Assembly (NCBI GenBank): GCA_964016885.1
Contig: OZ024742.1
Location: forward strand, 97,278,001 to 97,342,000
Length of the DNA stretch: 64,000 nucleotides
Source of the DNA: Eledone cirrhosa
Lineage: Eukaryota
Direction: 5' to 3'
In this document: positions 10,263 through 60,603 of the stretch, in pieces
Layout of the letters: every line of letters starts with the position of its first letter
How positions within the stretch are numbered: the stretch's first letter is position 1
Translations under genes and position numbers: made by a program
The notes under the pieces: generated by a model
What the model saw: only the letters and a program-made list of their open reading frames with translations
Told to the model about the DNA's origin: nothing
Database searches by the model: none

Positions 10263-10351
10263 CTATGATTCGAAGTTGTAGCTGCCATATAGCAGGAACT
10301 AATCACCTGGTGAGTAAAATTTGGTAGATGGAAACTGTGGAAGACGATTAC

Positions 10352-10441
<90 letters not shown>

Positions 10442-10481
10442 ACAGGAGGCTGGACTGGTGTAAATCCTTGAAAGGTTTATT

Positions 10482-10539
10482 ATACTATGATCATTTCAAT
10501 GACCGGATTCCATATGAATCCGGTGATATCATCAGGTAT
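10482..10539 (-). ncRNA. Minimal hammerhead ribozyme (left arm)
   Basis: AUAC-CUGAUGA-UAUC-ACCGGAUUC(AUAUG)GAAUCCGGU-CAUU-GAAA-UGAUCA-UA/GUAU: 4-bp stem I, 9-bp perfect stem II core, palindromic stem III AUGAUCAU. Confidence 0.7.
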
Positions 10540-10654
10540 TCGAAATATACCAAAGGAATATGTAAAAACCATAGGTCCGAAAAATCAGAGAAATCCTCTC
10601 TGTCTCTGATTTTTCGGACCCATGGTTTTTACATATTCCTTTGTTATATTTCGA

Positions 10655-10712
10655 ATACCTGATGATATCACCGGATTCGTATGGAACCCGGTCATTGAAA
10701 TGATCATAGTAT
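10655..10712 (+). ncRNA. Minimal hammerhead ribozyme (right arm)
   Basis: ATAC 10655, CTGATGA 10659-10665, GAAA 10697-10700, TGATCA-TA, GTAT 10709-10712; AATAAA 10713-10718. Confidence 0.7.
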
Positions 10713-10906
10713 AATAAACCTTTCAAGGATTTACACCAGTCCAGCCTCCTGTTATTTTATTTATAATTAACTCCGTATTCGCACCACCAACTACACAAAC
10801 GAAGACGGGTGAACTGCATTACGTTGAGTACTCTCCACAATATTACACCAAGATTGACCATACGGAATGACCAATTCTATCCAGTGGTGAACCAACAAAC
10901 CTAAAG

Positions 10907-10953
<47 letters not shown>

Positions 10954-10956
<3 letters not shown>

Positions 10957-11818
10957 GAATAAAGTTAGTCCTTCATCGGTTATCTTCCAACCATCATTGG
11001 TATTTCATCGCTTTAAAGACCATATACCTCAGGTTGGTGCGAGCAACGGCTAAAAAACGTCGTTGGGACACGAGAGTGTAAACAAACAAAGATGGTGAAG
11101 CAATGAAAAGTGAGGAAGAAGGAGTCAAGTCCCAAATTTCCATGAATATAAATTCGGTGAAATCGTGAACGAGAGAGAATAAAGACCATCAAACCTGGTT
11201 GGAATGTGAGCAAGGAAGGAATTCCGTACAGGTCTAACGGGAGGAAGAAGGAATCTAGTCTGTGAAATCGTAGACGAGAGAGAGAAATAAAAGCGAACCT
11301 GCCTGACCAAGGGTGCGAAAGAAAAGAATTACGCACAAGTCAAACGGGAAGAAGGAGAAGGAGGAGAGGTAGTAACAGAGAGTGAGTGAGTGAAGTGTGA
11401 GGAAGAGGCTAACAGAGAGAGTGACTGTTAGAGAGGGTAAAGATATAGAGAAAGGGGAAGCAGTAAGAACGAAATAGACGGGTCACAGCGGGGGAAAAAA
11501 TATGTGTAAATATGATAATAAACGTGCTGCGTGGATGCTAATGAGTTACATATGAATAAAGTTAGTCCTTCATCAGTAATCTTCCAACCATCATTGGTAT
11601 TTTATCGCTTTAAAGACCATATACATCCGGTTGGTGCGAGCAACGGCTAAAAAAAGTCGTTGGGACACGTAAATAAAGGGGACACGAGAGTGTAAACAAA
11701 CAAAGATTGTGAAGCAACGAAAAGTGAGGAAGGAGTCAAGTCCCAAATTTCCATGAATATAAGTTCGGTGAAATCGTGAACGAGAGAGAATAAAGACCAT
11801 CATATTTCTATATATAGC
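10954..11818 (-). mobile_element. Probable non-autonomous Helitron-like fragment with a ~240-bp internal direct duplication (10954-11190 / 11551-11801)
   Basis: The duplication is directly visible. The minus strand starts (G)CTATATATAGAAAT like a Helitron 5' end; no 3' CTAG end seen. Confidence 0.4.
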
Positions 11819-12599
11819 CGCTGGACAACAATATTGATGAATTATATTCCATACTTGATATATATAAACGTTCTGGGGTCGATACGATGGACCTATTTCC
11901 TTCAAGACTGAAACCTATATGACTTTTAGATAACCGATGTTCTTGTTCAGTATTATATATATAGTAAATTCTAAAATATATTTTAAGTGAAATATCTACT
12001 TTTATTTGTTGATATTAAAAGCATCACTTAAGCATTATAATTCAGTATTAGACTAATAATAATTCACTACGGATTGCGTACATCTTGAAAGTTATTGATC
12101 TCTATATTTTTATCATATCCACTTTCTTTATTTCAAGGAAAACACAATTTTCGACTAAATATCTACAGGAGATTAAGTTTTCTTTGCAACAAATCTAAAA
12201 TATATATTAAAAATAAATGCTTTTGGAACTCATAATTAAATCGTTGCAAAACGGTTTTATTTTAATTAATGCAATTTCATTTCTAATTAAATACGTTCAA
12301 CATAAGTGTGTTTTGAAAATGAAATCATTTTTAAGTACACATTCTGGTTCCGTTATTTAAGACATGTTGTTTTTCAATTGTTTCTGACAATTTGCCTTAG
12401 AGTATTATGCTATATAATCAAAAGCACCATAGTGTTAAAAGGGTTATGGATGAACTTTTCAAATTATTTGTTATAATATTTGAAACAATTGGAGAAGAAG
12501 TTAAGAAAATCCAAGTGGAGAAGAAACTTTTTTTTTTTTTTTGTAAATCAGGAAAGCTAAGTTAATGAATGGGTAGTTAAAAAATGAAGCTAAACATTA

Positions 12600-14275
12600 T
12601 TTCTTCTTCTTCTTCTCCGACGCCGCCGCCACCCACTTATTGCTGGGTGGATCGTAAGAGCAGAATCCTCTGACACTCATTCCAGCGGGTCCTGTCAGAA
12701 ACAACCGTCTCCAACTGATCCGGCTACTAGATCCCCAAGTGAAAGCAACCAGCTAGTTTTGCCCGTAAAATCTGTCCAGCAATTCTTTCTTGAGGCATTG
12801 TAACCACATGCCCAAAGTATCAGATTTTCCGATCTCCAAGTTACGCACTCTATCGAGTAACGTTACTCCAAAGACCCTTCAGAGAAACCCCATTGCGGCC
12901 GCTTGTATTGGCGACTTTATTCTTTCGAACATTACCGAAGATTCATCATTATAGTTAAGGGCGGTGAATTGGCAGTATCGGTAAAGGGTTGGACGCCATG
13001 CTTTCTAGCATAGTTACGTCCCTTTACAGTCTGAGTTCAAATCCCGCCGAGGTTAACTTTGCCTTTCATCCTTACGGGGTCGATAAAATAAAGTACCAGT
13101 AATGTACTGGGTTATTGCTGGCCTTGTGCCTAGAGTAGAAACAATTATAGTTAAGGGTTGGCACGAATACCGATTTGAAGATAGTGAGTCTGGATTTTAC
13201 ACCTACCTTCCTTCTTCTGATTAACCAATGTTGAAGCTGGCAGATTACTGCAGCAGCTCCAGTAATTCATTTACTTAATTCAGCCTCCTGACTTCTGTCA
13301 CTCGTGTACAGGTACCCGAGATATCCAAACTTATCCACCTGCTTCAGTTGAACTCCACTCACATATAGAGTGCACGGCACAGGCTTCCTTGGGAAGACTA
13401 GTGTCTCTGTTTTTGCAGCACTGATTTTCATTCTAGGCGTGCAGCACTCGGGATCAAACCTATCAAGTGCATGTTGTAGATAACCTTCCGACGAGTATTT
13501 AATACCATGTCATCCACAAATTCCAACCGACTTTTCCTACACCCACCAGTGTGATACCACTTCCAACACATTTGCGTATGTCAATCATGTTCATGAATAT
13601 TATGAACAGGAGAGGGGAGAGTACGCACCCTTTGCGGAGACAGACTTCCACACTGCATGGTTTCGATTTAGCAAAATTTATCCAAACCCAAATACTCGGA
13701 CCTTCATATAGAGACAGCAGAGCAATAACAAGCTGTCCATCGATCCCATACAACCTTCCACAGCAGGTACCACGTAACCCACTTGTATGCCTTTTCGAGG
13801 TCTACGAAGCATAATACCCCTCTTAGCAGTACTCCCACGATTTTTCAAAGAACCTTCCGCAGTGTGAATTTTCAGTCAGCTGTGCTGTGTAAGTGGCTAC
13901 AGCCACACTATTCGTCAGTTAGCCTGGTCTCTACACGTCTTTGCAAGACACTTAGCATAGTCTTTACCGGGAAGGCTTAATAAGGAAATTCCTCTATAAT
14001 TGGAGCAATCTCTCATGTTTTCCCGTTTTGAAAATTGGGATTATCACTCCCGTCTGCCATTGCTTAGGTGCCTTTCAAGAGACATAGGCCACTCGGCACA
14101 CACGTATCATCCAGAGAATACCTTCTCTATTTAAGGCCTTTTAGCATTCCGGGATGAATTTTCTCCTCCCCGTTGGCCTTGCCACATCTGAGGTCTTTAA
14201 ATGCTCTTGTGACCTCATCCTCCGAGAGATTAATCACTGCTCCCTGACGCAACTCGTGTACATCAAAGGAGGTTG
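12600..14275 (-). mobile_element. 5'-truncated, degenerate RTE-clade LINE (family 1, (GAA)n tail)
   Basis: Minus translation includes [13 protein letters not shown] and LKQVDKFGYLG; (TTC)n at 12601 is the tail. Confidence 0.8.
12961..13147 (+). mobile_element. Full-length SINE family A inserted in the RTE fragment
   Basis: A/B boxes and core intact; TSD ATTATAGTTAAGGG at 12948-12961 and 13144-13157. Confidence 0.92.
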
Positions 14276-17415: not shown

Positions 17416-20400
17416 TCTATATATATATAAAACAGAGGATGTGTGTTTGTCTGTGTGTGTGTGGATGCTACATTATTCGAGGTTGGCGTCTACACCGCTC
17501 GCCCGATCTCGCTCAAATTTGCATACATCACTCCTCATGACCCTTTACATTGCTTAGGCTACTTTGTTTTTTGATAGGTCCCCCGAGGGGCCTGCAATCC
17601 ACCTTTTTGTCTATTTTGGGTGAAATCGGGAGATGAGGTTGCATTTTATGCACGCGTGAAAAATTTTTCCTTTTGAGTTTTTTGACACGGCTTTTTGCTA
17701 ATATGGGTAGAAAAGAGTCTAAATGTTGTTGACGTGCTCGAATCATTTCGAAATTCGGTCGAGAGTGAAGCTCGAGGTCGAATCTCCACTTCGTATATAG
17801 AGAGACAGGAATAACAGGTCTTATAGTAACATTACCTTCCCCTTCCCCCTTCTTTAGAGAGAGAGATAGGAAGATAGAGAGAGAAGTTTTGGGTGTCACA
17901 GAAATATTACATTCCCCTCTCCACTTTGGTCAGTGAGCGAACCACTGTTGCTATAGTAACATTACCTTCTCCCTCCCCCTTCTTTATTGAGCGAGGAATA
18001 TAGAGAGAGACGTTGCTGGTGTTACAGTAACATTGCCTTCCCCTCTCCACTTACTTTGGTCTTTGAGACCGAGGGAACCACTGTTGCTCTAGTTACAGCT
18101 TCACGTGACACAAACCAGTTCCTGCCAGTTTTGACCACCTGGCACCAGTTGAGTCAGTTTTTGCTTTCTTTCGGTCGAGAAGTGGACAAATTTTCGCCTT
18201 GAATCAAAAAAAAATTTCATGGACGGCTGGAGGTGGCAGCTTTTATTCTCTTTTGGCAAGACTGCTATCAAAAAATTCTGCAGACTCTTATCGTTGATTT
18301 GAGTGGCCTGCAAAGCTTTGGTTTTCAAACGCTACACTTGCTACTTGGTTAGGCTACTGTGTAGACGTGTGCTTCACTCTCACTGCATTACATTTTGTGA
18401 CCTCGCTTTCGGACTTTGCCATTCCCAGTACGTTTTTTGTTTACTTTTTTCTTGCTTAAAATTGTCACAATTTGTCACTTTTTTTTACCTTCCCCAAAAT
18501 ACTGCTTATCACCTTTGCTTTTTTGCCTTTGCTCTAAACCTGCTTCCCCTTTACTGTTTACTGTACTATTGCAACCATGCCACTGAAAAGAAGGAGTACC
18601 CTTAGCCGTAGGAAAACATCGTCTGTTGTTTCAAAAAAGAGGCGATTGAATGAGCAGTCTACGGATGCCGAACTGCATTTTTGGCCACAAACCCCTGTTA
18701 CTTCGCTTTCAAACTTAAGTACCCCTAGCACAGCCCAACCCAGTGCCTCTCTATCTACGGTTACCGCTTCGAATCGTGCCATTCGTAATTGTCGGAATGC
18801 AGTTGCAACAGCCGCCTCTAGGGCAGCAGAGAGTGACAGCCAAATAGCTCTTCGTAGGGCTAGGAATGTTGCAACTACTGCTGCTGCAAGGGCCTCCGAA
18901 ACTAAACAGCAAACAGCCACCAGACGGTCAAAGAACGCTGCTTCAACCGCCGCCTCCCGTGCCGCAGAAACCGACCAGGAGACAGCCATCCGAAGGTCCA
19001 AGGACTCCGCCTCCAAGGCAGCTGCCAGAGCACCCCAGACTGAGATACAGACAGCCATCCGAAGGTCCAAGGACTCCGCCTCCACCGCAGCTGCCAGAGC
19101 ATCCCAGACCGAGATACAGACAGCCATCCGAAGGTCCCAGAACGCTGTATCCACCGCCGCCTCCCGAACATCAAATAGCCCGCCGTGCTCGGTTGGACAC
19201 AAACAACGCACGAAGAGACACCGCCAGTGGAACAACGAGTCCACATGAGTCATTTTGGCTTATGAAGGCTTTCAACTACGATCCAACAGTAAAATACTAC
19301 GACCGTACGGACATTCAACTAGGCAGGATGGATGTCATATTCCAATTCTGTGGTGCAGAGAAGTGGCCCGGAGAACCACCTGGCCTGTGCTGCTCTAATG
19401 GAAAGGTTTCACTTCCTCCTTTGGCGGCCACTCCAGAACCTTTGCGAGAACTTCTTAGCGGAGAGACCTCTACGTCAACAGACTTCCTTGGCAACATAAG
19501 GAAATACAACTGCGCATTCCAGATGACTTCGTTCGGGGCCAAAATTGTCCAAGAAAGCGGGTGGATGCCAACCTTTAAGGTTCAGGGCCAGGTTTACCAC
19601 TATGTCGGTCCTCTACAGCCTGCGCCGTCAGCGCAACCCGCCTTCCTGCAAATTTACTTCATTGCTGACTACAACAAGCAGGCTGACATGCGCTCATCTG
19701 TCATCCCAACTGATGGCACTAGAGAGAACCTGGACAGAGACGTCCTCCTTGCGCTGCAGCAAATGCTACACTCCGAAAACAGCTACGTGCAGAGCTTCAA
19801 GTTCGCCTTGGAGACTACTGACCTGCCTAACTTCAACATCGATGCCGACAAAAGACCATCCGGAGAACACGCCCGTCGATTCAACGCGCCCGCGTGCAAC
19901 GAGGTGGCAGTCGTCCTTCACGGAGACCTGCACAACCCCCCGGGATATCGTCATATCCAACCGTGCAACTGGCCTCCACAGAATACGCGAAACACACCGA
20001 TCCTACGACAGCCTCCAATACCTTCTACTTTTCCCCCGCGGCGAGGACGGCTACCACTTCAAGACTCCACACTGCCAGCCAAACCAGCCCTCCGTTGCTA
20101 CCGCCAAAACCGTGTCCTGCAAGGAATTTTACGCATACCGACTCATGCCTCGGAGAAACTGTTTCAACAGTTTGCACAGATCGCAGGACCTACTGAACCA
20201 ATGTGCGGTGGATATAGCAGCAAAGATGGAGTCAGAACGACTGGCCTTCATTCGAACCCACCAGCAGCAACTGCGTAGCGAAAGCTACATACACCTGCGA
20301 GACGGCTTGGCCAACGACGGGGATCCTCGAAACGTTGGCAAGGTCTGCATCCTGCCTTCTACCTTCACTGGAGGACCTCGGTACATGCACGAGAGAACTC

Positions 20401-23400
20401 AGGACGCCATGAGCTACGTGCGGGCCTACGGCCGTCCTGACCTCTTCATCACCTTCACGTGCAACCCGAAGGCGGATGAGATCACCCGAGAACTCCTTCC
20501 AGGGCAGTCATACCACCACCTCCTTGACTTCATAGCGAGGGCTTTCGAGAGGAACATACAGAAAATGAAGGCATGTTGTGCAAAAGCCAACATCTTCGGC
20601 CCTGCTAGATGCCATACGTACACCGTAGAATGGCAGAAACGGGGCCTGCCTCACATTCATCTGTTACTGTGGCTGCAGAACAAGATCAACGCCAACGACA
20701 TCGACTTATTTATCTGCGCAGAGATCCCCAACCCTGCCACCGACAAAGAACTCTTCGACGTCGTCACGACTTCCATGATACACGGACCCTGTTATCCGGG
20801 TTCTAACCATTCGTGTCAGAAAGACGGGATCTGTAGTAAGAGGTAACCTAGGAAATTTGTTTCAGAGATCCAGACAGGGCACAACGGCTATCTCCTGTAC
20901 AGGCGCCAGTCGCCTGAAGACGGTGGTTTTACTGCCATTGTAAGGGGCAAGCAAGTCGACAATCGATAGGTGGTCCCCTATTGTCCACTTCTCACTTCGA
21001 CATTCCAAGTCCACATTAATGTGGAATTCTATAGCTCAGTTAAATCGATTAAATATGTTTGCAAGTACGTCAACAAGGGCTGCGATTCCGCCGCATTCGC
21101 CCTCCAGTCCGACAGGGTCGAGGTCAGTGAGTACCTATCGGCCCGGTACATAAGTACAAACGAAGCGTTTTGGCGAATTTTTGGTTTTTCTATCCATGAA
21201 AGATACCCCAAAATCACAAACCTGGCAGTCCACTTAGAGAACGGCCAGTGAGTTTACTTTACGGCCGCAAATGCTGCTCAAGTTGCGGCTAACCCCAAAG
21301 AAACCACGTTAACCGCTTTTTTTAAGCTCTGTCACGTAGACGCTTTTGCGAGAACTCTAATTTACCCTCAGGTGCCGTCCTACTTTACTTGGCGCCGCAA
21401 TAGCTGGGTACGGCGAAAAACTGGTAAGGCAGTTGAATCGCATCCGGGAGTTAAATTTTCTGACTGCCTCGGTAGAGTCTACACGGTTCCCCCAACCCAA
21501 CCTGAGTGCTTTCACCTGCGCATTCTTCTGCACGAGGTCAAGGAGCCGCAAGGTTTCTTTGACTTAAAAACAGTAAACGGGGAACTTTGCAACACTTTTC
21601 GAGAAGCCTGCTTTAGGCTTGGTCTCTTGGAAGATGACTCCCAATGGGACTCGACCCTCGCCGATGGTGCTCTGCTGAAATCCCCACAGAAATTAAGGGA
21701 ACTGTTTGCCTTTTTGCTGCACAATTGTGGCTTAGCTAACCCTTCAGCCCTTTGGCTGAAGTACAGGGACGATTTGTGTGAGGACTTCCTCCGCACAGCC
21801 AAACGGCAAAATCCGTCTTTAGAAGTGGGATTCACCGAAATTATTTACAACCAAGGGCTAATTTCCATCCAAGAAGAGCTCCTTCAACTAGGGGGGAATG
21901 ACTTGCCAGCCGCCAGCAGGGAAAATGTTAGTGTGCTGGGTCCAGATATTCTGTTGGAGACATCTTACGATGTCGCCATGTTGACAACTTTCCTAGATGA
22001 AAATGAACGTAAGCTTCTTCCCGAGCAAAGGGTTGCTTATGAGACTGTCGTTGACTGCACTGGGTGGATTAGGTTGTGTCTTCTTTCTTGATGCCTCTGG
22101 CGGTACAGGCAAAACCTTCGTTACCTCCCTCATTTTGGCGCGTCTTCGACAACAAAAAAAGATTGCCCTTGCGGTCGCCTCATCGGGGAACGCCGCTACC
22201 TTGCTGCCTGGAGGGAAGACGTCTCATGCTGCCTTTAAGCTTCCGTTGGACCTCGCACGAACTGATACGCCGACGTGCAACATTAGCAAGCACTCCGACA
22301 AAGCGGCACTTCTCGCAAAATGTTGCCTCATTGCGTGGGACGAATGCACCATGGCACATAAGGGTGCTCTGGAAGCATTAGATAGGAGTTTAAAATATAT
22401 CAGGAACTCCTCGGCACCCTTGGGTGGCGTGACTTTACTGCTTTCGGGTGAATTCAGGCAAACGCTGCCTGTTATCCCCAAAGGGACAAGGGCTGATGAA
22501 GTCCGCGCATGCCTGAAGTCGTCGACGCTTTGGCCTATCGTTCGGACACTCCGCCTGAGCGTTAACATGCGGGCGCAGTTGCTCGGGGACAGCACGTCTG
22601 CTGAATTCGGCCAGGCCATCCTAGCTATAGAGGAAGGCCGACTTCCTTCCAACGAAAAGGGTGAGGTGTCGCTAGCATCTGTCAGTAATACAGTTGACAG
22701 TCCTCAGGCCCTTTTAGAAGCTGTTTTTCCAAACCTACAGGTTAACTACACTAACTTAGATTGGCTTAGTTCAAAAGCCATCCTAGCCCCCAAAAACTCT
22801 GCTGTTAATGCTCTCAACAAAGAGCTACTCGGTAAGATTCCAGCCCAAGAGAAAATGTTTAAGTCTATAGACCGCGTCACCGATCCACAGGAGGCGACGG
22901 ATTACCCAGTAGAGTTTTTGAATAGCCTTGACCCCCCAGGTCTCCCACCCCACATCCTGAAGCTCAAGGTCGGCAGTCCGATTATTCTTATGCGTAACAT
23001 GCGCCCCCCAAAACAGTGCAACGGCACTCGAATGGTAGTCAAATCAATGACGAACCATCTCATTGAAGCAACCATTTTAACTGGTTGTGGTAAAGGTGAG
23101 ACCGTCATGATCCCAAGGCTAAGCATCCAACATTCGACCACGGACATCCCGATAGATTTTAGGCGACATCAGTTTCCCGTAAGGCCCTGCTTCGCGATCA
23201 CCATAAACAAATCTCAGGGTCAAACTTTGTCCGTGGCGGGCATTCATCTAAAAGAGCCCTGCTTTGCTCATGGCCAACTTTATGTTGCCTGCTCGCGAGT
23301 TGGGAGTAAGGACTCCCTTTTTTCATACACACCAAACGGTATGACCCGCAACATAGTCTACAAAGAGGTCCTGTAACGTGCATTACCACTGAGATGATTT

Positions 23401-28161: not shown

Positions 28162-31100
28162 TTAGCCAAAATGTCGACCAGATGCATAATTTGTACTTAC
28201 CCGATAAACTTGTACGTATCGCGTGGGCCATCGGACTGTTCTTCCAGATTTGGTGTGTCGGGGTTGTGCAGAATTTGTCGTGTTTGTGTCGGGCAAAGTT
28301 CTTGGTGAGTCTGCTGGAGAAACGGTGGGTACTGGTGGCAACTCCTGTTCTATGAACGCTTTTTTTAAACGATCAATGGAGACGGTATTTCGTTTCCCGT
28401 TCAAGTCGAGGACGAAATACTTAGGGCATTTCTGTATCACCTTATAGGGCCCGGAATACGGCGGACGAAGTTGCGATGGAATACCGTCATTTCTAACGAA
28501 AACATGCGTCCGTGTATCGATGTCTTTTGGTATGTGTGAAGTAACGTGCTGTTGTTTAGGGGCTGAAGGAGTCAGATGCGACATCGATGACCGTAAACGG
28601 TGCACAAATTTTGTAGGGTCTGGAAGTTCTTGTGGCGAAACAGGAGCGATCATTTGCCCGGGTAGAGTGAGTACAGTGCCATACAACATTTCAGCCGGAG
28701 AATGTCCGACTCCCTCCTTAACAGTGGAACGAATACCAAGAAGAATGAGTGGGAGGTATTCGAACCAGTTAGTGGAGTCTTCGTAAGCTTTGATAGATGA
28801 TTTTAGCTGGCGGTGTAAGCGTTCTACCATGCCGTTAACGGCAGGGTGATACGCTGTTGTACGGATGTGTTTGCACCCGAGGAGACGAGTCAGCTCGGTA
28901 AATAGGTGCGAATCGAACTGACGTCCTCTATCCGTAGTGATGGTCGCGGGTGTGCCGAAACGCGAAACCCAGTGAAACACTAGCGTTTTGGCGACAGCTT
29001 CCGCAGTAATATCCGTCAGGAGAAAAGCTTCTGGTCAGCGAGAAAATCGATCGACACAGGTGAGAAGATGAGTGTAGTTGTGAGAAGGAGGCAAAGGTCC
29101 AACGATGTCTATATGCACATGTTGGAACCGTGCATCAGGTGTTGCGAAAGAACCGATCGGGGCTTTGATGTGCCGGTGAATTTTCGCCTTCTGGCACGCG
29201 ATGCAGTTCCTAGCCCATTCGCCGGTGTCTTTGTTGATGTTGGGCCACACAAAGCGGGCAACCATCAGTTTCTGCGTGGCGCGGACGCCAGGATGTGCCA
29301 GAGAATGTAGTGCCGAGAAAACGTCGCGTCGATGTTCCGGGGCACGTATGAGCGCTCGTGGCCTGTGGAGATATCGCACCAAATATAACCCGAACAAGAG
29401 GGCAGCGGGCATTCCTTCAATTTCAAGGATGATTTCCGGAATTGCAGCAGTTCCTCGTCATTCTGTTTATCCTCTGGAGGTCGATAGTGGCAGTGGTCTG
29501 GATTGCGTTAAGCTCCATGCGCGATAGGGCATCAGCTGCTGAGTTGGTGGCACCCTTAATGTACCGAATATCAGTAGTGTATTGAGAAATGAAGTCCAGA
29601 TGTCGGACCTCCCTGGGTGAGTGTCGGTCAGGCTTGGCATTGAACGCGTACACTAGTGGTGTGTGGTCGGTGTATATAGAGAACACACGACCTTCTAGCA
29701 TGTGTCGAAAATGCTTTACAGCAAGGTATGCTGCCAATAATTCACGACTGAATGTGCTGTACTTAGTTTCGGCGGGTTTTAATCGCTTAGAGAAAAAAGA
29801 TACAGGTCGCCAAATAAAAAGTTGTTGAAGTACACCTCCAACTCCGAAATCGGATGCATCAGTCAATAAACACATTGGGGCGTCAGGTTTGGGGTAACTC
29901 AGCATTGTAGCCTCGGACAACATTTCCTTCAACTCAGCGAAAGCGGTACATTCTTTTTCTTTTTCGCTGAGCTTGATGTTTGCGTTTTTGGTTGTACGCT
30001 GCCGCAGCAAATCTGTGAGTGGTTGGGCTGTCTCTGCACAGTGGGGTATAAATCTTCTGTAGAAGTTTACCAGGCCAAGAAATTCTCGCAGTTTGCGGAG
30101 AGATGTAGGTTGTGGAAAATCAATGATGGATTTGACTTTCTCCTTAAGTGGGCGAATACCATCTTTGTCAATGATGTGTCCCAGAAAATGAAGAGACGCA
30201 ACTCCGAACTCACATTTGCTGGGGTTGATAACAATTCCGTATTCACGCAAACGTGTGAATAGGAGATCCAGGTGCTTCTCATGGTCTTCATCGGAGCTGC
30301 TGGCCACCAGTAAGTCGTCGATGTATGCGTATACAAAAGGTAGACCTCTGGTGACTGTATCGATGAATCGCTGGAATGTCTGCGCTGCATTTCGCAAACC
30401 GAAAGGCATACGCAGAAATTCGAACATTCCAAAGGGTGTTGTGACTGCGGTCTTTGGAATATCTGCGGGCTCAACGGGTATCTGATTGTAAGCTCGCAAA
30501 AGATCGATCTTCGAAAATATGCGAGCCCCGTGCAGCGAGCTAGAGAAGTCCTGTAGATGAGGCACTGGATAAGAATCAGGAACGGTGCAGTTGTTCATTG
30601 CACGGTAGTCGCCACAGATTCGCCAGTCGTTCGACGACTTCTTGGGTACACAGTGTATGGGTGAGGACCAGTTGCTGCTGGACGGACGTATGATGCCGAG
30701 ATCCAGCATGTGCTGAAATTCTTGTTTGACGGACTGGTGGTAGCCTTCTAGGTCGTGCAGCGACAGGTGGGCCGTGAGTTTTTATGTGGTTTGTGACGTC
30801 ATGTTTTACAGGGCAAGCGTTGAATAGTGGTCGAGCTACGTCTGGGTATTTGTTGATTATGTGGTTGAAATGACTGGACTGACTGTGGCTGTCCTAGCGG
30901 CTATGCCGCACACAGCGAGACCAGTGGAGTTGTCAACGAGTCGTTGGTTTTTCAGGTCCACTAGCAGCGAGAAATGCTGAAGAAAGTCAGCTCCTAAAAT
31001 AAGGGTCGGCAGCTTAGCCACAACGAACACCCACTGGAAAGTGCGGCGTAGTCCCAAATTTAGTGTCAGGGACTGTTCTCCGTAGGTCGGAATATGTGAG

Positions 31101-31250
31101 TGATTCACCGCCTGGAGCCAGGCTGGTGTCTCTCTCCTTTTTCCAGGAACGCAGGAAACCGGGATGATGCTCACTTCAGCACCGGTGTCGACCAGGAAAC
31201 GCGTGCCTGTGACGCGATCCTGAATAAAAAAAATAGGCGACTTTGGTTAT
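28162..31250 (-). pseudogene. pol: Gypsy pol: protease, RT, RNase H, integrase (frameshifted)
   Basis: FLVDTGAEVS; [19 protein letters not shown]; TDASD..ELLA..YTDH..ADALSR; [38 protein letters not shown]. Confidence 0.93.
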
Positions 31251-31289
31251 GAGGGCCAGAAACGTCTGTCGCATTCAGTTTCTGGTTGT

Positions 31290-32110
31290 GTCGTTTCCCT
31301 GATTCGTTTTCGAAACAAATGAACAGGGATGGCTGCACTTTTGCGCTCGTCTCCCGAATTTTTGGTGGTACCAACACATTTCTGGTGAATCTCGAGATGC
31401 GCTGCGACTTCTTGAGCGACCACCAAATCGGCGAGTTCCTGTTGGACAGACGCGTGGCAGGGTTGCACAGTGACAAGGCCTGAATTTGTTGCGTCAAGGC
31501 TTGTATCTGTGTTGCTTGCTGTGCCAGTAACCGGTGTAAATCCGGCATCTCTGTGGCCCTGGAGGGCTGAAGGAAAGGATTGGTGGAAGGCACGGCTGGC
31601 GTCACATTCGCTATTTTTGAGTGCGGATGATCTTATCTGCCAGCTCGGCGAGTTCTTCTATGGTGGTGGACTCCCTGGTGGATGCTAGTACAACTTGTGT
31701 GGCAAAAGGTAAACGCTGGAGGAAGAGTTGCTTGAAAATTTCATCCGGGAGTTTATGTTCACCCAGAAGCTGCTTCATTCTCCGTAGGAGTTGCGTCGGC
31801 TGTTTATCTCCTAATTCCTCCGATATGAGGAGCTGGTGCAAACGCTTCTGCTGCGACTCCGACGTCCGCTTAACTAATGTTCTTTTAAATGTGTCATATG
31901 ACACAGAGCCGGGTGGTCTAAAATGAGGTCTCTAACCTCATTCATAATCTCCGGAGACATCGAACCGATGACATGTGTGAGACGGGATGCCTCGCTAACG
32001 ATCCGGTTCAATGCGAACTGCGCTTCGATGTGCGCCCAGAATGGTGGAATCCTTAATATCGCCCTGACTGCCATTTCTGCCGTAGATGAATCGTCGTGTG
32101 CTAGAGACAT
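31290..32110 (-). pseudogene. gag: Gypsy gag (frameshifted)
   Basis: IPPFW..IEAQF, ELGDKQPTQLLRRMKQL, LFLQRLP, C-X2-H-X9-C-X3-C knuckle. Confidence 0.88.
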
Positions 32111-54248: not shown

Positions 54249-57012
54249 CTACAGGCATATACTCAGAGCGTTCAATCGGACCAGACGCCACTTTCACCCA
54301 GCTTCCAAGCGCTATCCCTCAGTCTTTTCCTGATCCAGGACTGCAGCTCCGTCAAGGGGACGAGCTGGGGAAAAGTGCGTCTGGCAAACGGCGACCACAC
54401 CTGTTCACAAGGAAGCACCAGAGATGTCGCAGCCTCAGCGCATGTTTGCGCATCATCAACCACGGCATACCTAGTCCTCCACACAACGGGCGTTGACAGC
54501 AAATGGATCATCTGACCATGGGAGTAAGTCCCTTCCACAAAAAGCGGAAGAGAAAGCGCTCCATTTTGGTCAGAGTTGGGCGGGGGCAAGGTACGACGGT
54601 CAGGCAGTAGCAGATGACGAACGCTATGTACGCATCGCCACCTCTGCTCAACCTTTCAGAGATAGCCTCCTCTTGGCCCATTTCTGGGTGAGAGAGGCCA
54701 CACTGATCGTCACCTCGCTCCAGTTTTCTCCATCTGGAGGTCCGGACCAAACCAGACCCCAAGCAATTTAACCGGTCTTTCCGTCCAGCGCCCCATGACG
54801 CTGTCGGACGGCATAGACTTGCATCTCCAGGTGCCGAGTTGCAAGCCCACCGACTTTTCCTGGTTTATCTTTGCTCCTGTCACCGCTTCGTATTCCTTGA
54901 GAGCGGCGCCGAACATCTGGATGTGTTTGGTACTCGACACCACCACGGTGACATCGTCGGCATAAGCTGACACGGATCTCCTGCATCCCAGTTTGCGTGG
55001 GATCCCCTTTATCATCTCCAATTTGTGAAGTAACGGCTCAAGGGCCAGTACGTACAAGAGGGACGAGAGGGGGCAACCCTGGCGGACTGAGCGCATGATG
55101 CTGAAAGGCTGCGACAGGTGATCATTCACCCTCACAATCGAGCAGATGTCGCTGTGCATCGCAGCGATCCAGCCCCTAAAAATAGGCCCGAAGGCGGCCG
55201 CCTCGAGGACCGCAGCCAGGTACCGATGGTCGATCCTATCAAATGCTTTAGATTGATCCAAGTTGATCAGGGCCCCACTCGTGCCAGGTTCCTTAACCAC
55301 CCTCTCTATAAAGTATCGCATGAGATGGAGGTTGTCGTGGATTGATCTGTCCGGAATGGCGCATGTCTGTGCCTCTCCCACCAGATCACCGACGACAAAC
55401 GCCAAACTCTTTGCTAACACCTTGGCCAAAATCTTAAACACTGCATTTAGCAGAGTTATGCGCCTGAAGTTGTCTATAACATCCCCCTTGTTCGGGTCTT
55501 TTCTCAGCAGTGCCACCGCTCCCCGGCTCACAAAACTGGGAATGCTCCTGTTTTGCAGCCAGTTGTAGTAGACATCTGCCAAGAGGTCACCGAACAAGTC
55601 TGGCATATATGCATAAAGCTCGTAGGGTAGACCATCCAAACCTGGCGATTTACCCCTTGTGCAGTCAGACATCGCTTCCCGTATATCATTGGCTGTTATC
55701 GGCCTTTCACAGCACTGTACTGCGGTCGTCGAGAGACGCGGCAGTCCGTTGAGGTATGCACTGAAGTCCATACTCCGATCCGGCTCGCCGCTCCCGAACA
55801 ATCGAGCAAAGTGCTGTTGAAAAGCCGCACACATCTGCTCAGGTTCGAGCAACATGGGCCCGTTTTGATCAGGCAAAGACCGAATTGTAAACGTGTTGCC
55901 ACGTCGCGCCTCCACCACCCAGGCCCATTGAACGGTTTTCGTCCCCTCGTGTCTTAGAGCACGCGCTCTATCTCTGACAATGCAGCCTTCATGCTTTGCG
56001 TTGAAGAATTGGTTGAGTGCCAATCTCACCGCAGCACGTCGGTTGCGATGCCTGTCCTAAACGACTCTTCTAGCTTTCTAATTAACTCTCCCTCTACTCT
56101 ATTTTCCTCTATCACTACTCCTTTGCTAAACCTTATCGATTCTACTCTAATAGCCCTTTTCAGGGTAAACCACCACCTGTTGTTGACGATCGCACCCGTC
56201 AATGCACACTTAACTAATTCGCTAATCCGGTCTCTGTAAGCTTTGCGCGCCGGGAACGACATGTTCAGCTTTCAGTAGCCGGGCCCTTGCCTAAGTCACA
56301 GATCACAAATTTGTGGTCTGTGTAGTCGACTACATTAAATTGTGGACAACCTACACTAGCCTTATCTGTTTCCCTACAGAATACCCTATCTAAATACGAT
56401 CTGGAGGACCCAATGCGGTTTGCCCACGTCCACATTGGCACATTCGGATAATCAAGTCTATACCTGTCAGACATTTCAAAACTCTGAGCAGGTTGTTGAG
56501 GCTTTTACACCCTCCTGTCCTGTCTACTTGCCCAGCGTGCATCTAAGATACCGTTCATAATCCCAGCGTGCATCTAAGATACCGTTCCAGTCGCCCACTA
56601 ACATTAAAGAGCAGGACGTTCCAAGAAAGATCTCTAGATTTCTGAAGAAATCTGGCTGTCCTACCCCAGTTTGGGCGTAGACGGCTACTAGCCTGAAAGC
56701 ATTGCCTCCGTTGCCGGTCACGTCCAACACCACCGACTTACCTTCTGGGTCCAGGAAAATGGCCCGAATGGCGAGATCCAAGCCTCTCCGAAAAAGCACT
56801 GCCACCCCTCCCTCCGATCCTGGATGGCTGGGAGATGCGTATACATCGTAGCCGCCGAAGATCGGTGCGAAGGCTCGTGCTTCGGAGATTCTGGTTTCGG
56901 TGATGGCCACCATATCTATGTTTAGTGATCTGAGGTCGTTGAGCAGGTGACCCTGCTTCCAAGATGACCCCAGGCCACGTACATTTATACTGCCTATTCT
57001 AAGCACGGCCAT
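54249..57012 (-). pseudogene. ORF2: APE endonuclease + reverse transcriptase
   Basis: SINVRGL, ITET, GDWN, SYLDR, TDH; SPGLDGLPYE, LDQSKAFDR, VRQGCPLS, YADD, LLGVWF; several frameshifts. Confidence 0.9.
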
Positions 57013-57044
57013 GTTGGATGAGAAACTGGATAAGTGAGACAGGG

Positions 57045-58836
57045 TCACTTACCTTGATCGTGTGGTGAAGGGACAGTAGAACCGTCCCTTTGGTTGGTCA
57101 TGGGGGTTTCCAAGAGGATGTCAGTGTATATCCTCTTGGTAACCAACCCTCTGAAGTCTCCAACTGCGTTGGGGAATTTTTGTTTTAAAAGTTTGTACTG
57201 TTCTATTTTGATATCAATGATGCTTATGTTTATCGGGAGAGTTCTTGGTGTTGGTGGGGTGTAGTAGTTTTTTTCTGTGATGTCTATGTGCTGCTTTATA
57301 TGTTGTATGAGTTCTTTATTTGCCTTGTTTATGGCTGTGTACTTTTGGGGGGGAGGGGTGATTTTTTGGCTGTTTTCTTGTTGTTGCTGTTGGGTATGTG
57401 TGTTTTGTTGTGTTTGTCATGTTTGTGTTTTTGATCATGCTGGTGGTGGTGTTGCTGCAAGTTTCCTTGCAGTCTTTACCCCTCTTTTGGAGGGTGAAGC
57501 TAAGGGTTTTTTTCTCTTTTGTTTTTTGTGGCAGATCATTTGCCACTTCCCTCCTGCCTCATTCTCCATGTCAGATTCCGTGGCGTCTGGGAGGGTTATG
57601 AGCTCCACTGCTGTTGGTGGTGGTGGTAGTGGAGCCCTCTCCGGCGATTTTGCTGCCGGTGTGGCTACTGCGACTGTTGGTGTTGCCGCCACTGCTGCCG
57701 CTGCTTTAGTTGTCCGTGGCCTTGGTATGGGTGCCACGGACGTTGCCCTCCTACTCACCATGGCAGGGTCTTCTGCCTCTGTTGCCTGCCATGCTCTTGG
57801 TAGTAGCGGACCAGGCGTGGGAAGGAGGGGGGGGGCCTCTTCTTGGCTGTCTTCTGCGGGCAGAAATCGCTGACGTGACCCTTCTGCCCAGGGAGATAGC
57901 ACTTTGGGCGCCTTCCTTCCACGCTTATAGGGAGTTGGAGCCCTTCTTCGAGGTCTATGATGTCTGGGATGATGCACTCCTGGTTAGTCTGTATTAACAT
58001 CTGCATGCCTATTCCTGACCAGTTCTCTCTTCCCATTCTCTGTATTTGCAGTATGGTGGTCTTTTCCTCGATTCCAGAGGTACAGACGCGGCCAGCCAAG
58101 CTATGGGCATGTCGGGCGGGACCTGGGTCACTTTGACCCTCACAATTTTCTGCCCGCAGTAGGAGGGCATCAAGACTATCTCCTCACTCTCTAGGATTCC
58201 CAAAGAGTGAGACTACGCCTCTTGGGGGTGGCGAAAAGTACGTCTACTGTGGTGTACTTTCTGCCTCGGGTGATGTGGGTTTTGCGTGCCCAGACACACC
58301 CCAAGGCCTTTTGGATTTGAGCCTCCGTGACTCTCTCCACCCGATGTGACATTTTGCTTGCGGTGCAGTAAGTCACCGTCCATAGCTGCTGGTCCTTGAA
58401 TAAATCGGGTGGAGGTTTCAGGGAAACTCTATTGGCGTTTCTTGTCACCATGGATGGACTTTGCGACTGCCATCTCCTCCTCTGTGACTAACACTGTTTC
58501 GATATTTCGGGCCACACTTGCAAACGAGGTGGTCCCTTTTCCAGCGGCACCACTATTGCTGCCGTTACTGGTCTTGCTGGTGGTGCTGAGATCGCTGTTA
58601 CAGGTATCGATGTCATTGTTGATGTTTTCGTTGGTACTGTTGTTGCTGTTGTTGTTGTTGATACTGTTGCTGGTGTTACTGTTATTGTGGCTGTTGTTAT
58701 TATTGTTGTTTTTGTTGATACTGTTCCTACTATTATTATTGTTGTAGCTGTTGTTATTGTCTTGTTGATATGTTGACAAAGTCTCCCTCTCTCTGTGTTG
58801 TCTGACATCGCTCTCTCTCTTTCTTGTGTTATCCAT
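57045..58836 (-). pseudogene. ORF1 (Asn-rich N-terminus, decayed CCHC knuckle, Pro/Ala/Thr-rich region), frameshifted
   Basis: MDNTRK...poly-N, SFASVA, EGRRPKCYLPGQKGHVSDFCP; lies directly upstream of ORF2. Confidence 0.7.
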
Positions 58837-59478: not shown

Positions 59479-59894
59479 AAATTAGAAAACAAATTTAAGT
59501 TAATTAGAAAACAAGTCATGGTTATCAAATAAATTGAATTTAATCATTTATATTTTCATAGTCATGGTTATCAATGTAGAAAACAAGTCATTTTCACCCA
59601 CAGTGGAATTACTTGTGACAGCTAATAACATGAACTTAGATGAATTTTCACCAACAGTGGAGTTAACTTAAATGAAAATATAGGTGGCCGTTATGGAATT
59701 AACCATCGCGATCTTTCTATCACTACCGCTACTACAGCAAATACCATCAATCTCCACGGGAACTGTCTCTTGTCTCCATGTGGACTGTATCCATGCTTTT
59801 GAATAAGGTTGGTGAAAAAAATTTGTTTTCTAAACATTTCTTCATAATGGGTTGGTGAAAAAAATTTGATAACCATAAATTTGTTTTGTAATTT

Positions 59895-59910
59895 GGCCCT
59901 TTTAAGGGCC
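59895..59910 (+). other. Histone-3'-type stem-loop (GGCCCUUUUAAGGGCC-ACC)
   Basis: 6-bp stem with UUUA loop plus ACC, matching the metazoan histone mRNA stem-loop consensus. Confidence 0.6.
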
Positions 59911-60063
59911 ACCTATATTTTCATTTAAGTTAACTCCACTGTTGGTGAAAATGATTTGTTTTCTACATTGATAACCATGACTATGAAAATATAAATGATT
60001 AAATCCAATTTATTTGATAACCATGACTTGTTTTCTAATTAACTTAAATTTGTTTTCTAATTT

Positions 60064-60079
60064 GGCCCTTTTAAGGGCC
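60064..60079 (+). other. Histone-3'-type stem-loop (GGCCCUUUUAAGGGCC-ACC)
   Basis: Identical to 59895-59910. Confidence 0.6.
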
Positions 60080-60603
60080 ACCTATATTTTCATTTAAGTA
60101 ACTCCACTTACATCGATATGCTTTAATAAAAAAAAATAATAATAATTTCATTTAAGTAACTCCACTTACATCTATATGCTTTAATAATAAAAAAAAAGTA
60201 AATAAAAATCGCGTGAAAAAAAAAAATTTATTTAAGTAACTACACTTACGCGTGGTAGTAATACGGAAATAAACGATGTTTTGCTTTCATCGGCTGCTTC
60301 GACTGACAGCTAATAGCGTTGTAGTGCCGGCAAAGTTAATCTCGGCGGGATTTGAACTCAAAATAGCAAGGCGTAACTCTATGCTGGAAAGCATGGCGTC
60401 TGACCCTCTACCGATACGGCCAATCCAACATATAAAATAATAATGATGAAATAAATAATAACAGCAATAATGATAGCAATGTCGGTAAACACATATGTAT
60501 ATGTATATGTGTGGTGTGTGTGTTTGTATATATGTCTGAGTTTAACTCTCTCTATATATATAAACATATATATACATTCATATATATATATAAATTATAT
60601 ACG

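What the first reader, a model, noticed from the sequence alone, without database searches (positions are those of the whole stretch)
10434..10760. 327-bp palindrome carrying one self-cleaving hammerhead on each strand
Seen: 158-bp arms (~4 mismatches, 11-nt loop), each with CUGAUGA/GAAA, a 4-bp stem I, a palindromic stem III (AUGAUCAU) and AATAAA immediately after, inserted between (TA)n tracts. Known: PLE minimal hammerheads have palindromic stem III loops and cleave as dimers, and PLEs often have inverted pLTRs. Inference: a transcript from either direction meets a ribozyme plus poly(A) signal, but can alternatively fold into a long dsRNA (ADAR/Dicer substrate) that masks the ribozyme. This could be a bidirectional terminator or switch, or a non-autonomous retrozyme-like unit.
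Basis: partly seen in the sequence, partly recalled or inferred. Interest (0 to 1): 0.72.

Follow-up and report, generated by a model that had tools for sequence, protein, structure and literature searches.

The report
Fold-back stub of Penelope-like retroelement
The 327-base palindrome with a hammerhead ribozyme motif on each strand is real, but it is most likely an ordinary dead-end insertion of a very abundant Penelope-like jumping gene (two truncated ends joined head to head), and RNA read through it is predicted to fold into one long hairpin that hides the ribozyme rather than working as a switch.

Summary
In detail: 158-bp arms, 4 mismatches, an 11-nt loop, and one type I hammerhead plus AATAAA per strand. 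The insert is 475 bp, not 327: a 148-bp extension on the right arm also belongs to the family. Reads show thousands of family copies. Depth at this palindrome's centre is about 35,000-fold below the arm peak, and 8 other head-to-head joints lie at scattered points. So the palindrome is a recurring insertion by-product, not a mobile unit. Each arm carries private substitutions, which argues against an assembly fold-back. Ribozyme architecture (U·U beside stem II, palindromic stem III), (TA)n targets, the inverted truncated copy and the one-sided tail match Hydra-clade Penelope-like elements (Craig 2021). Opposite-strand hammerhead pairs 100-700 bp apart were reported in 2014. No RT-GIY-YIG parent could be linked, so membership is inferred. 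The terminator/switch idea is weak: only one ribozyme is sense per strand, read-through RNA folds into a hairpin, and the cut would detach the AATAAA. Cleavage and expression are untested. This scan noted the same structure before in another genome (e1-9995956). The one unusual feature is the 148-nt tail, against the known 30-40.

The parts
10375..10436 (.). Left (TA)n target tract (31 units; overlaps the arm end by 3 bases)
   Evidence: sequence
10434..10591 (-). Left arm: inverted, 5'-truncated copy of the element's 3' end, stopping at the family's short 3' end (equivalent to 10760), no extension
   Evidence: private bases at 10507 and 10550 against the family majority
10482..10539 (-). Type I hammerhead motif, minus strand; predicted cut after 10486
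   Evidence: activity untested
10476..10481 (-). AATAAA on the minus strand, starting 5 nt 3' of the predicted cut
10592..10602 (.). 11-nt loop at the head-to-head junction; 10594-10602 is element sequence (family contigs begin at 10594), so the right arm reaches about 9 nt further 5' than the left
   Evidence: table 8 records 2 and 17
10603..10760 (+). Right arm: 5'-truncated direct copy of the element's 3' end; many family copies end at 10760-10761 followed by AT-rich or (TA)n flank
   Evidence: loose ends: X1 14+19 contigs, X12 168+239 reads
10655..10712 (+). Type I hammerhead motif, plus strand: 4-bp stem I, CTGATGA, U·U, long imperfect stem II, GAAA, palindromic stem III; predicted cut after 10708
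   Evidence: architecture compared by eye with File S2 of PMC8557442; activity untested
10713..10718 (+). AATAAA on the plus strand
   Evidence: 76 plus-strand and 88 minus-strand AATAAA in the window, so common by itself
10761..10908 (+). 148-bp one-sided extension (likely the PLE 'tail', unusually long); high-copy, joined to the hammerhead part at other loci, ends in (TA)n
   Evidence: 3 of 24 listed pieces bridge 10760 by 31 or more letters each side (X4 records 12 and 13, X5 record 18); X5 loose end at 10899 runs into (TA)n
10909..10956 (.). Right (TA)n target tract (24 units)

Best explanation
The 475-bp insert at 10434-10908 is two short copies of the end of a very high-copy repeat, joined head to head inside a (TA)n tract, and is most likely a dead, 5'-truncated insertion of a Penelope-like retroelement, probably of the Hydra clade. 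Shown: the palindrome, the motif, the high copy number of the arm and extension, two family 3' ends (about 10760 and about 10900-10908), and other head-to-head joints at varied points. Inferred from PLE biology: the parent's GIY-YIG endonuclease cut the (TA)n tract; reverse transcription began at one of two internal start sites, stopped early, and folded back or re-primed, giving an inverted second arm; the extension appears on one side only. The hammerhead is a passenger of the element's terminal repeat, built to work as a dimer in tandem RNA. At this locus it is predicted to be silent, because any read-through RNA forms a 158-bp hairpin, which would at most be a passive Dicer/ADAR substrate.
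For: Family size: 3169 of 16,285,364 contigs of run X1, 97 of 762,587 in X5, 20 of 8,254,286 in X4 (a second organism), and 3886 of 12,467,656 raw reads in X12 lie on 10437-10905. Centre depth in X1 is 12.5 (10565-80) and 409 (10581-96), against 440,695 at 10709-24. Of 9 listed joints, 8 join left-arm to right-side sequence, each in one contig (X1 depth 4.8-22.8; X5 69.2), and 2 of the 8 recur in X12 raw reads (2 reads and 1 read). Their arm offsets are 11-32 nt in 6 of 8 (85 and 193 in the others), and the window's own is 11. The arms carry private bases against the family: 10507 and 10550 on the left, 10679 on the right. Literature: inverted 5'-truncated copy, one-sided tail and (TA)n bias are standard PLE insertion features (PMC8557442; PMC3846280, which also reports mostly head-to-head junctions). 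Dual minimal hammerheads 100-700 bp apart on opposite strands were reported in Schistosoma and tied to truncated PLEs (PMC4209133); here the cores are 124 bp apart. In File S1/S2 of PMC8557442 (my count by eye), 14 of 25 Hydra-clade hammerheads have the same U·U flanking stem II, 26 of 27 Hydra families target (TA)n, and Penelope-13_HM carries an inverted 5'-truncated copy with a hammerhead on both strands. The PLE tail lies between two RT start sites (PMC11167929). Folding: stem I and stem II pair probabilities are 0.0 for transcripts entering from outside the palindrome.
Against: No RT-GIY-YIG ORF was linked to the family: no genome is held, 61 of 68 nearby stop-free frames gave only one weak RVT_1 hit, 2.6 kb away, and collection scans found nothing. 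The extension is 148 nt, against 30-40 bp in the papers read. The long end lies 196 nt past the hammerhead, beyond 23 of 24 Hydra consensus ends (26-149 nt; one at 351). The octopus Hydra family in that supplement has a different hammerhead, and none of the short window motifs searched there matched. None of the 24 listed pieces spans this locus's own centre (3282 pieces not shown). The G10.1-C11.1 pair of metazoan minimal hammerheads is absent.
Confidence: 0.85

Rival explanations
1. A self-propagating palindromic unit (MITE/foldback-like DNA element or inverted retrozyme) in which the whole 327-bp palindrome is what moves.
For: Near-perfect 158-bp terminal inverted repeats ending at TA-rich sequence; several other head-to-head forms exist.
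Against: Centre depth is 3-4 orders of magnitude below the arms in X1 and absent or near zero in X4, X5 and X12. The 8 other joints all differ in position. The 148-bp extension is on one side only and continues the family sequence.
Confidence: 0.05
2. A functional bidirectional terminator or conformational switch: ribozyme plus poly(A) signal act on transcripts from either side, and the hairpin turns them off.
For: Motif and AATAAA are intact on both strands. Transcripts starting inside the element can form stems I and II (stem I probability 0.006-0.83 depending on ends).
Against: Read-through RNA gives stem I probability 0.0. Only one hammerhead is sense per strand. Even in an isolated arm the catalytic monomer fold has probability about 4e-9, and the dimer fold is about 5 kcal/mol above two misfolded monomers in the nearest-neighbour model, which ignores core tertiary contacts. 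AATAAA occurs 164 times in the window. PLE minimal hammerheads cleave weakly even as dimers, and one needs protein. No host gene was identified around the site.
Confidence: 0.03
3. An assembly fold-back artefact that duplicated one genomic copy in reverse.
For: PLE inverted structures trouble short-read assemblies; no listed contig bridges the centre.
Against: The arms differ at 4 sites, with each arm departing from the family majority at its own sites (10507, 10550 left; 10679 right). The bin 10565-80, which holds the left-arm base 10573, has depth 12.5 in X1, within the range of the single-contig joints, as expected if X1 holds this allele (inferred). Similar joints occur in contigs and raw reads of other samples.
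Confidence: 0.04
4. The 148-bp extension is a separate (TA)n-targeting repeat that inserted next to the arm, not a PLE tail.
For: Its last 50 bp are deeper than its first 90 bp in X5 (2430 against about 350-540) and it is far longer than published tails.
Against: Arm-extension continuity is seen at diverged loci in two organisms (3 of 24 listed pieces); a pile-up at the far end is what 5' truncation from a shared 3' end gives.
Confidence: 0.15

Closest known systems
Hydra-clade Penelope-like elements (Craig et al. 2021, PMC8557442), especially Penelope-13_HM with its inverted 5'-truncated copy
   Same: Type I hammerhead near the 3' end with CUGAUGAU...UGAA (U·U in 14 of 25 listed families), 4-bp stem I, short palindromic stem III; (TA)n targets; inverted truncated copy giving a hammerhead on both strands; short 3' end 48 nt past the ribozyme (12 of 24 consensus ends lie at 26-66 nt).
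   Different: No ORF here. Stem II is longer (about 10 bp) with C·C and, on the right arm, A·C mismatches. The long end is 196 nt past the ribozyme. The sequence does not match Hydra-1_Obim's hammerhead or any motif searched in that supplement.
Insertion units of EN+ Penelope/Poseidon elements (Adineta vaga Pen2a, PMC3846280; Anolis PAc, PMC11167929)
   Same: Head-to-head inverted pLTR slightly shorter than the direct one, optional tail on one arm, AT-rich targets.
   Different: Tail is 148 bp rather than 31-40; no start codon with an open frame running through the hammerhead and tail was seen; no TSD can be read in (TA)n.
Opposite-strand dual minimal hammerheads of Schistosoma mansoni (Cervera and de la Pena 2014, PMC4209133)
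   Same: Two motifs 100-700 bp apart on opposite strands, long stem II, 4-bp stem I, palindromic positions 15.2-16.2.
   Different: No G10.1-C11.1 pair; a full 4-bp palindromic stem III rather than a missing one.
Non-LTR retrozymes (PMC7229834; bioRxiv 10.64898/2026.07.22.740005)
   Same: Non-coding, type I hammerhead, likely PLE-derived, high copy.
   Different: Retrozymes are head-to-tail tandem repeats that yield circular RNA; this is an inverted pair and no head-to-tail joint was listed.

Membership tests
Type I hammerhead ribozyme | Core CUGANGA, GAAA, UH with stems I-III in type I order | tested here: met
   one hit per strand in 64 kb; 0 of 20,000 shuffles
Type I hammerhead ribozyme | R10.1-Y11.1 (usually G-C) pair closing stem II | tested here: not met
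   U10666·U10696; the same U·U stands in 14 of 25 Hydra-clade motifs; no Rfam hammerhead hit
Type I hammerhead ribozyme | Core conserved among copies | tested here: inconclusive
   none of the 40 listed differences falls in CTGATGA, GAAA or the UA; 10667 A>G keeps a G·U pair; loop and stem III centre vary; 81 further rows not shown
Type I hammerhead ribozyme | Self-cleavage (as monomer or dimer) | not testable with these tools
   folding models favour an inactive pairing of the core with stem III
Penelope-like elements, EN+ (Hydra clade) | Linked PLE reverse transcriptase with C-terminal GIY-YIG endonuclease; RT phylogeny | not testable with these tools
   no genome; no ORF nearby; scans empty
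Penelope-like elements, EN+ (Hydra clade) | Hammerhead close to the 3' end | tested here: met
   48 and 196 nt from the two family ends
Penelope-like elements, EN+ (Hydra clade) | Frequent 5' truncation and an adjoining inverted 5'-truncated copy | tested here: met
   depth falls from 237,456 (10645-60) to 409 (10581-96), partly through subfamily divergence upstream of 10633; 8 other head-to-head joints
Penelope-like elements, EN+ (Hydra clade) | (TA)n insertion bias | tested here: met
   (loose ends at 10760, 10798, 10899 run into (TA)n)
Penelope-like elements, EN+ (Hydra clade) | Optional one-sided tail of 30-40 bp | tested here: inconclusive
   a one-sided extension is present but is 148 bp
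Non-LTR retrozymes | Head-to-tail tandem monomers, each with a type I hammerhead | tested here: not met
   no tandem array here; no 'goes back' joint among the 9 listed
MITE / foldback DNA element | The whole TIR-bounded unit is multicopy with a fixed centre | tested here: not met
   centre depth 12.5-409 against up to 440,695; joints vary

The most novel reading that the evidence does not exclude
This family is a Hydra-clade Penelope-like element with two reverse-transcription start sites about 148 nt apart, four times the known tail, and its many fold-back stubs, when read through, make long hairpin RNAs that mask the ribozyme and supply small RNAs that silence the whole multi-thousand-copy family, so the element's own insertion errors act as its brake.
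Probability: 0.12. Interest if true: 0.5.

Novelty: new member of a known kind. Interest (0 to 1): 0.17.

Why it matters
As a single locus it matters little: it is a known kind of retroelement debris. The family has some use as material. It seems undescribed in the sources searched, it has two 3' ends about 148 nt apart, and it has many fold-back junctions with 11-32-nt offsets. A genome-wide catalogue could test the self-priming model for PLE inverted repeats and whether Hydra-clade tails are longer than the textbook 30-40 bp.

Tried and rejected
Rfam at gathering threshold over the window and at E up to 10 over 10300-12500: no hammerhead; the miRNA-family hits lie far below their gathering scores and only reflect the long hairpin. 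Whole genome: none held. blastn of the palindrome and extension against the window: no second copy. Pattern scans of viral contigs and metagenome contigs: 0 matches. Pfam on 61 of 68 stop-free frames of 55 aa or more at 3.7-18.4 kb (7 left out: five at or beyond 17.6 kb beside the Helitron-like ORFs and duplicates of repeat frames): only a sub-threshold RVT_1 hit at 13502-13801. Six-frame translation of arm and extension: nothing PLE-like by eye. Short motifs of the palindrome, extension and neighbouring repeat searched in the supplement of PMC8557442: no match (line breaks in FASTA can hide matches). Paper searches: 'Penelope-like + hammerhead + head-to-head' 0 papers; 'Penelope + cephalopod + inverted repeat + A-to-I' 1 paper, listing only; 'hammerhead ribozyme + octopus' nothing on this family in the listing. 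Read ends in run X12 (table 6) were set aside as evidence of element boundaries because it is a restriction-based library. Earlier scan notes by sequence and by genome: nothing.

Full report
Observation. The inverted repeat is as described: arms 10434-10591 and 10603-10760, 158 bp, four mismatched pairs, 11-nt loop. It folds at -265.4 kcal/mol, with 0 of 100 shuffles as stable. Each strand has one type I hammerhead motif. On the plus strand: stem I 10655-58/10709-12, CTGATGA 10659-65, GAAA 10697-10700, palindromic ATGATCAT 10700-07, predicted cut after 10708, AATAAA at 10713-18. A descriptor finds exactly these two sites in the window and none in 20,000 shuffles of an arm. Rfam does not detect them. 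The window is a repeat-rich animal-type sequence. That the host looks like a cephalopod is my recollection of its common repeats and comes from no call.

Extent of the insert. The left arm abuts (TA)n, but 148 bp lie between the right arm and the next (TA)n. Laying four public runs on 10437-10905 (4 of the 14 runs listed) shows that this extension belongs to the same family. Three of the 24 listed pieces bridge 10760 by at least 31 letters on each side, in two organisms, and loose ends at 10899 run into (TA)n. Many other copies stop at 10760-10761 (X1 14+19 contigs; X12 168+239 reads). So the family has a short and a long 3' end, 48 and 196 nt past the ribozyme, and this locus uses one on each arm. 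The insertion is 10434-10908.

Copy number and what moves. 3169 contigs of run X1 lie on the stretch. Summed depth reaches 440,695 on the arm but is 12.5 at 10565-80 and 409 at 10581-96. The tool warns that summed depth is no copy number, so I claim only 'thousands of copies'. Of 9 listed joints, 8 join left-arm sequence to right-side sequence. Each is in one contig and all lie at different points; two recur in raw reads of another sample (X12, 2 reads and 1 read). The offset between arms is 11-32 nt in 6 of the 8, and 85 and 193 in the other two; the window's own is 11. Head-to-head forms therefore arise repeatedly and independently, and the 327-bp palindrome is not the amplified unit.

Artefact check. 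Against the family majority the left arm is private at 10507 (99% of X1 depth has the other base) and 10550 (92%), and the right arm at 10679 (99.9%). A software fold-back would copy identical bases, whereas independent decay of both arms fits a real duplicate. Against this, no listed piece spans the centre (3282 pieces not shown), and X1 may be the sample behind the assembly.

What it is. PMC8557442 (passages) describes PLE insertions as 5'-truncated, often with an inverted 5'-truncated copy at the 5' end, a 30-40-bp tail at one end, and microsatellite targets. PMC3846280 (passages) shows the same in Adineta vaga, says head-to-head is the commonest arrangement and proposes self-priming. PMC4209133 (parts 1-2 of 4) already reports pairs of minimal hammerheads 100-700 bp apart on opposite strands. 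In the supplement of PMC8557442 (part 2 of 59 and term searches), 14 of 25 Hydra-clade hammerheads have U·U flanking stem II, as here, and 26 of 27 Hydra families target (TA)n (my counts by eye). Penelope-13_HM has an inverted truncated copy with a hammerhead on each strand. Hydra consensus ends lie 26-66 nt (12 of 24) or 81-351 nt (12 of 24) past the ribozyme (Penelope-18_HMa was left out because its listed motif is at the 5' end). PMC11167929 (parts 1-2 of 4) shows in vitro that the tail lies between two RT start sites, that the endonuclease cuts AT-rich DNA, that the ribozyme needs the protein and is dispensable for insertion, and that no RNA reads end at its cut site. Membership remains inferred. 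No RT-GIY-YIG ORF could be linked, the octopus Hydra family listed has another hammerhead, and the extension is about four times the published tail.

How it works. Likely steps: a parent element's endonuclease nicks the (TA)n tract; cDNA synthesis starts at one of two internal sites and stops 60-110 nt upstream of the ribozyme; the nascent strand folds back or re-primes, giving an inverted arm that ends at the other start site. These steps are inferred from the papers above; only the end product is shown. For RNA, only one ribozyme is sense on either strand, so the arms cannot form the tandem dimer that such motifs need (Lunse 2017 seen only as cited in PMC6765202). Read-through RNA meets the antisense arm first, and the hammerhead stems have probability 0.0. 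Even an isolated arm prefers a fold in which the core pairs with stem III (-14.9 against -4.0 kcal/mol, right arm), and the dimer fold is about 5 kcal/mol above two such monomers; this model ignores tertiary contacts. A cut after 10708 would separate upstream RNA from the AATAAA, which in any case occurs 164 times in the window. The terminator or switch reading therefore has little support. A passive hairpin is plausible if the site is transcribed, which could not be tested.

Comparison with retrozymes. These are head-to-tail tandem repeats (PMC7229834, passages; bioRxiv 10.64898/2026.07.22.740005, part 1 of 5). That defining feature is not met here. The bioRxiv supplement was closed and the supplements of PMC4209133 were not opened; either may list this family's motif.

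Earlier scan notes. After I had recorded a 55% PLE fold-back reading, a word search showed the same structure and verdict in another genome (e1-9995956) and gave the lead to the Adineta paper. These notes are not counted as evidence.

Verdict. A real feature of a known kind, from a family apparently not listed in the sources searched. Interest 0.17. The long one-sided tail and the set of short-offset junctions are the only points worth a specialist's follow-up.

Noticed in passing
window 10954-11802, minus strand: A second repeat abuts the same (TA)n tract from the other side. 10954-11191 recurs at 11551-11802 (88.6% identity), a partial tandem, with CTGATGA/CCGATGA close to its end and no GAAA downstream. 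It resembles the 'HHR half-core' noted for some Naiad PLEs, but five short terms did not match that paper's supplement.
   Followed up: partly
window 59890-59935 and 60059-60103: Two Rfam histone 3' UTR stem-loops above gathering score, near 57-58-bp tandem repeats, with no histone ORF of 120 aa or more listed beside them.
   Followed up: no
window 18538-23376 (+): Fragmented Helitron-like Rep and Pif1-type helicase ORFs, identified by eye.
   Followed up: no
window 28162-31657 (-); 54710-58183 (-); 13502-13801, 39.2-40.7 kb, 47.7-50.1 kb, 61.1-61.7 kb: Gypsy-like pol pieces, an L1/Tx1-like element and several RTE-like LINE fragments (by eye; weak RVT_1 hit at 13502-13801).
   Followed up: no
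loose ends at 10633-10635: A diverged subfamily continues upstream of the hammerhead with related but about 70%-identical sequence (by eye), and depth drops sharply upstream of about 10645; 5' ends may cluster near stem I as noted in other genomes, but binned depth cannot separate truncation from divergence.
   Followed up: partly
File S1/S2 of PMC8557442: Hydra-clade consensus ends fall in two groups after the hammerhead (26-66 nt and 81-351 nt), which hints that longer tails may be general in this clade.
   Followed up: partly
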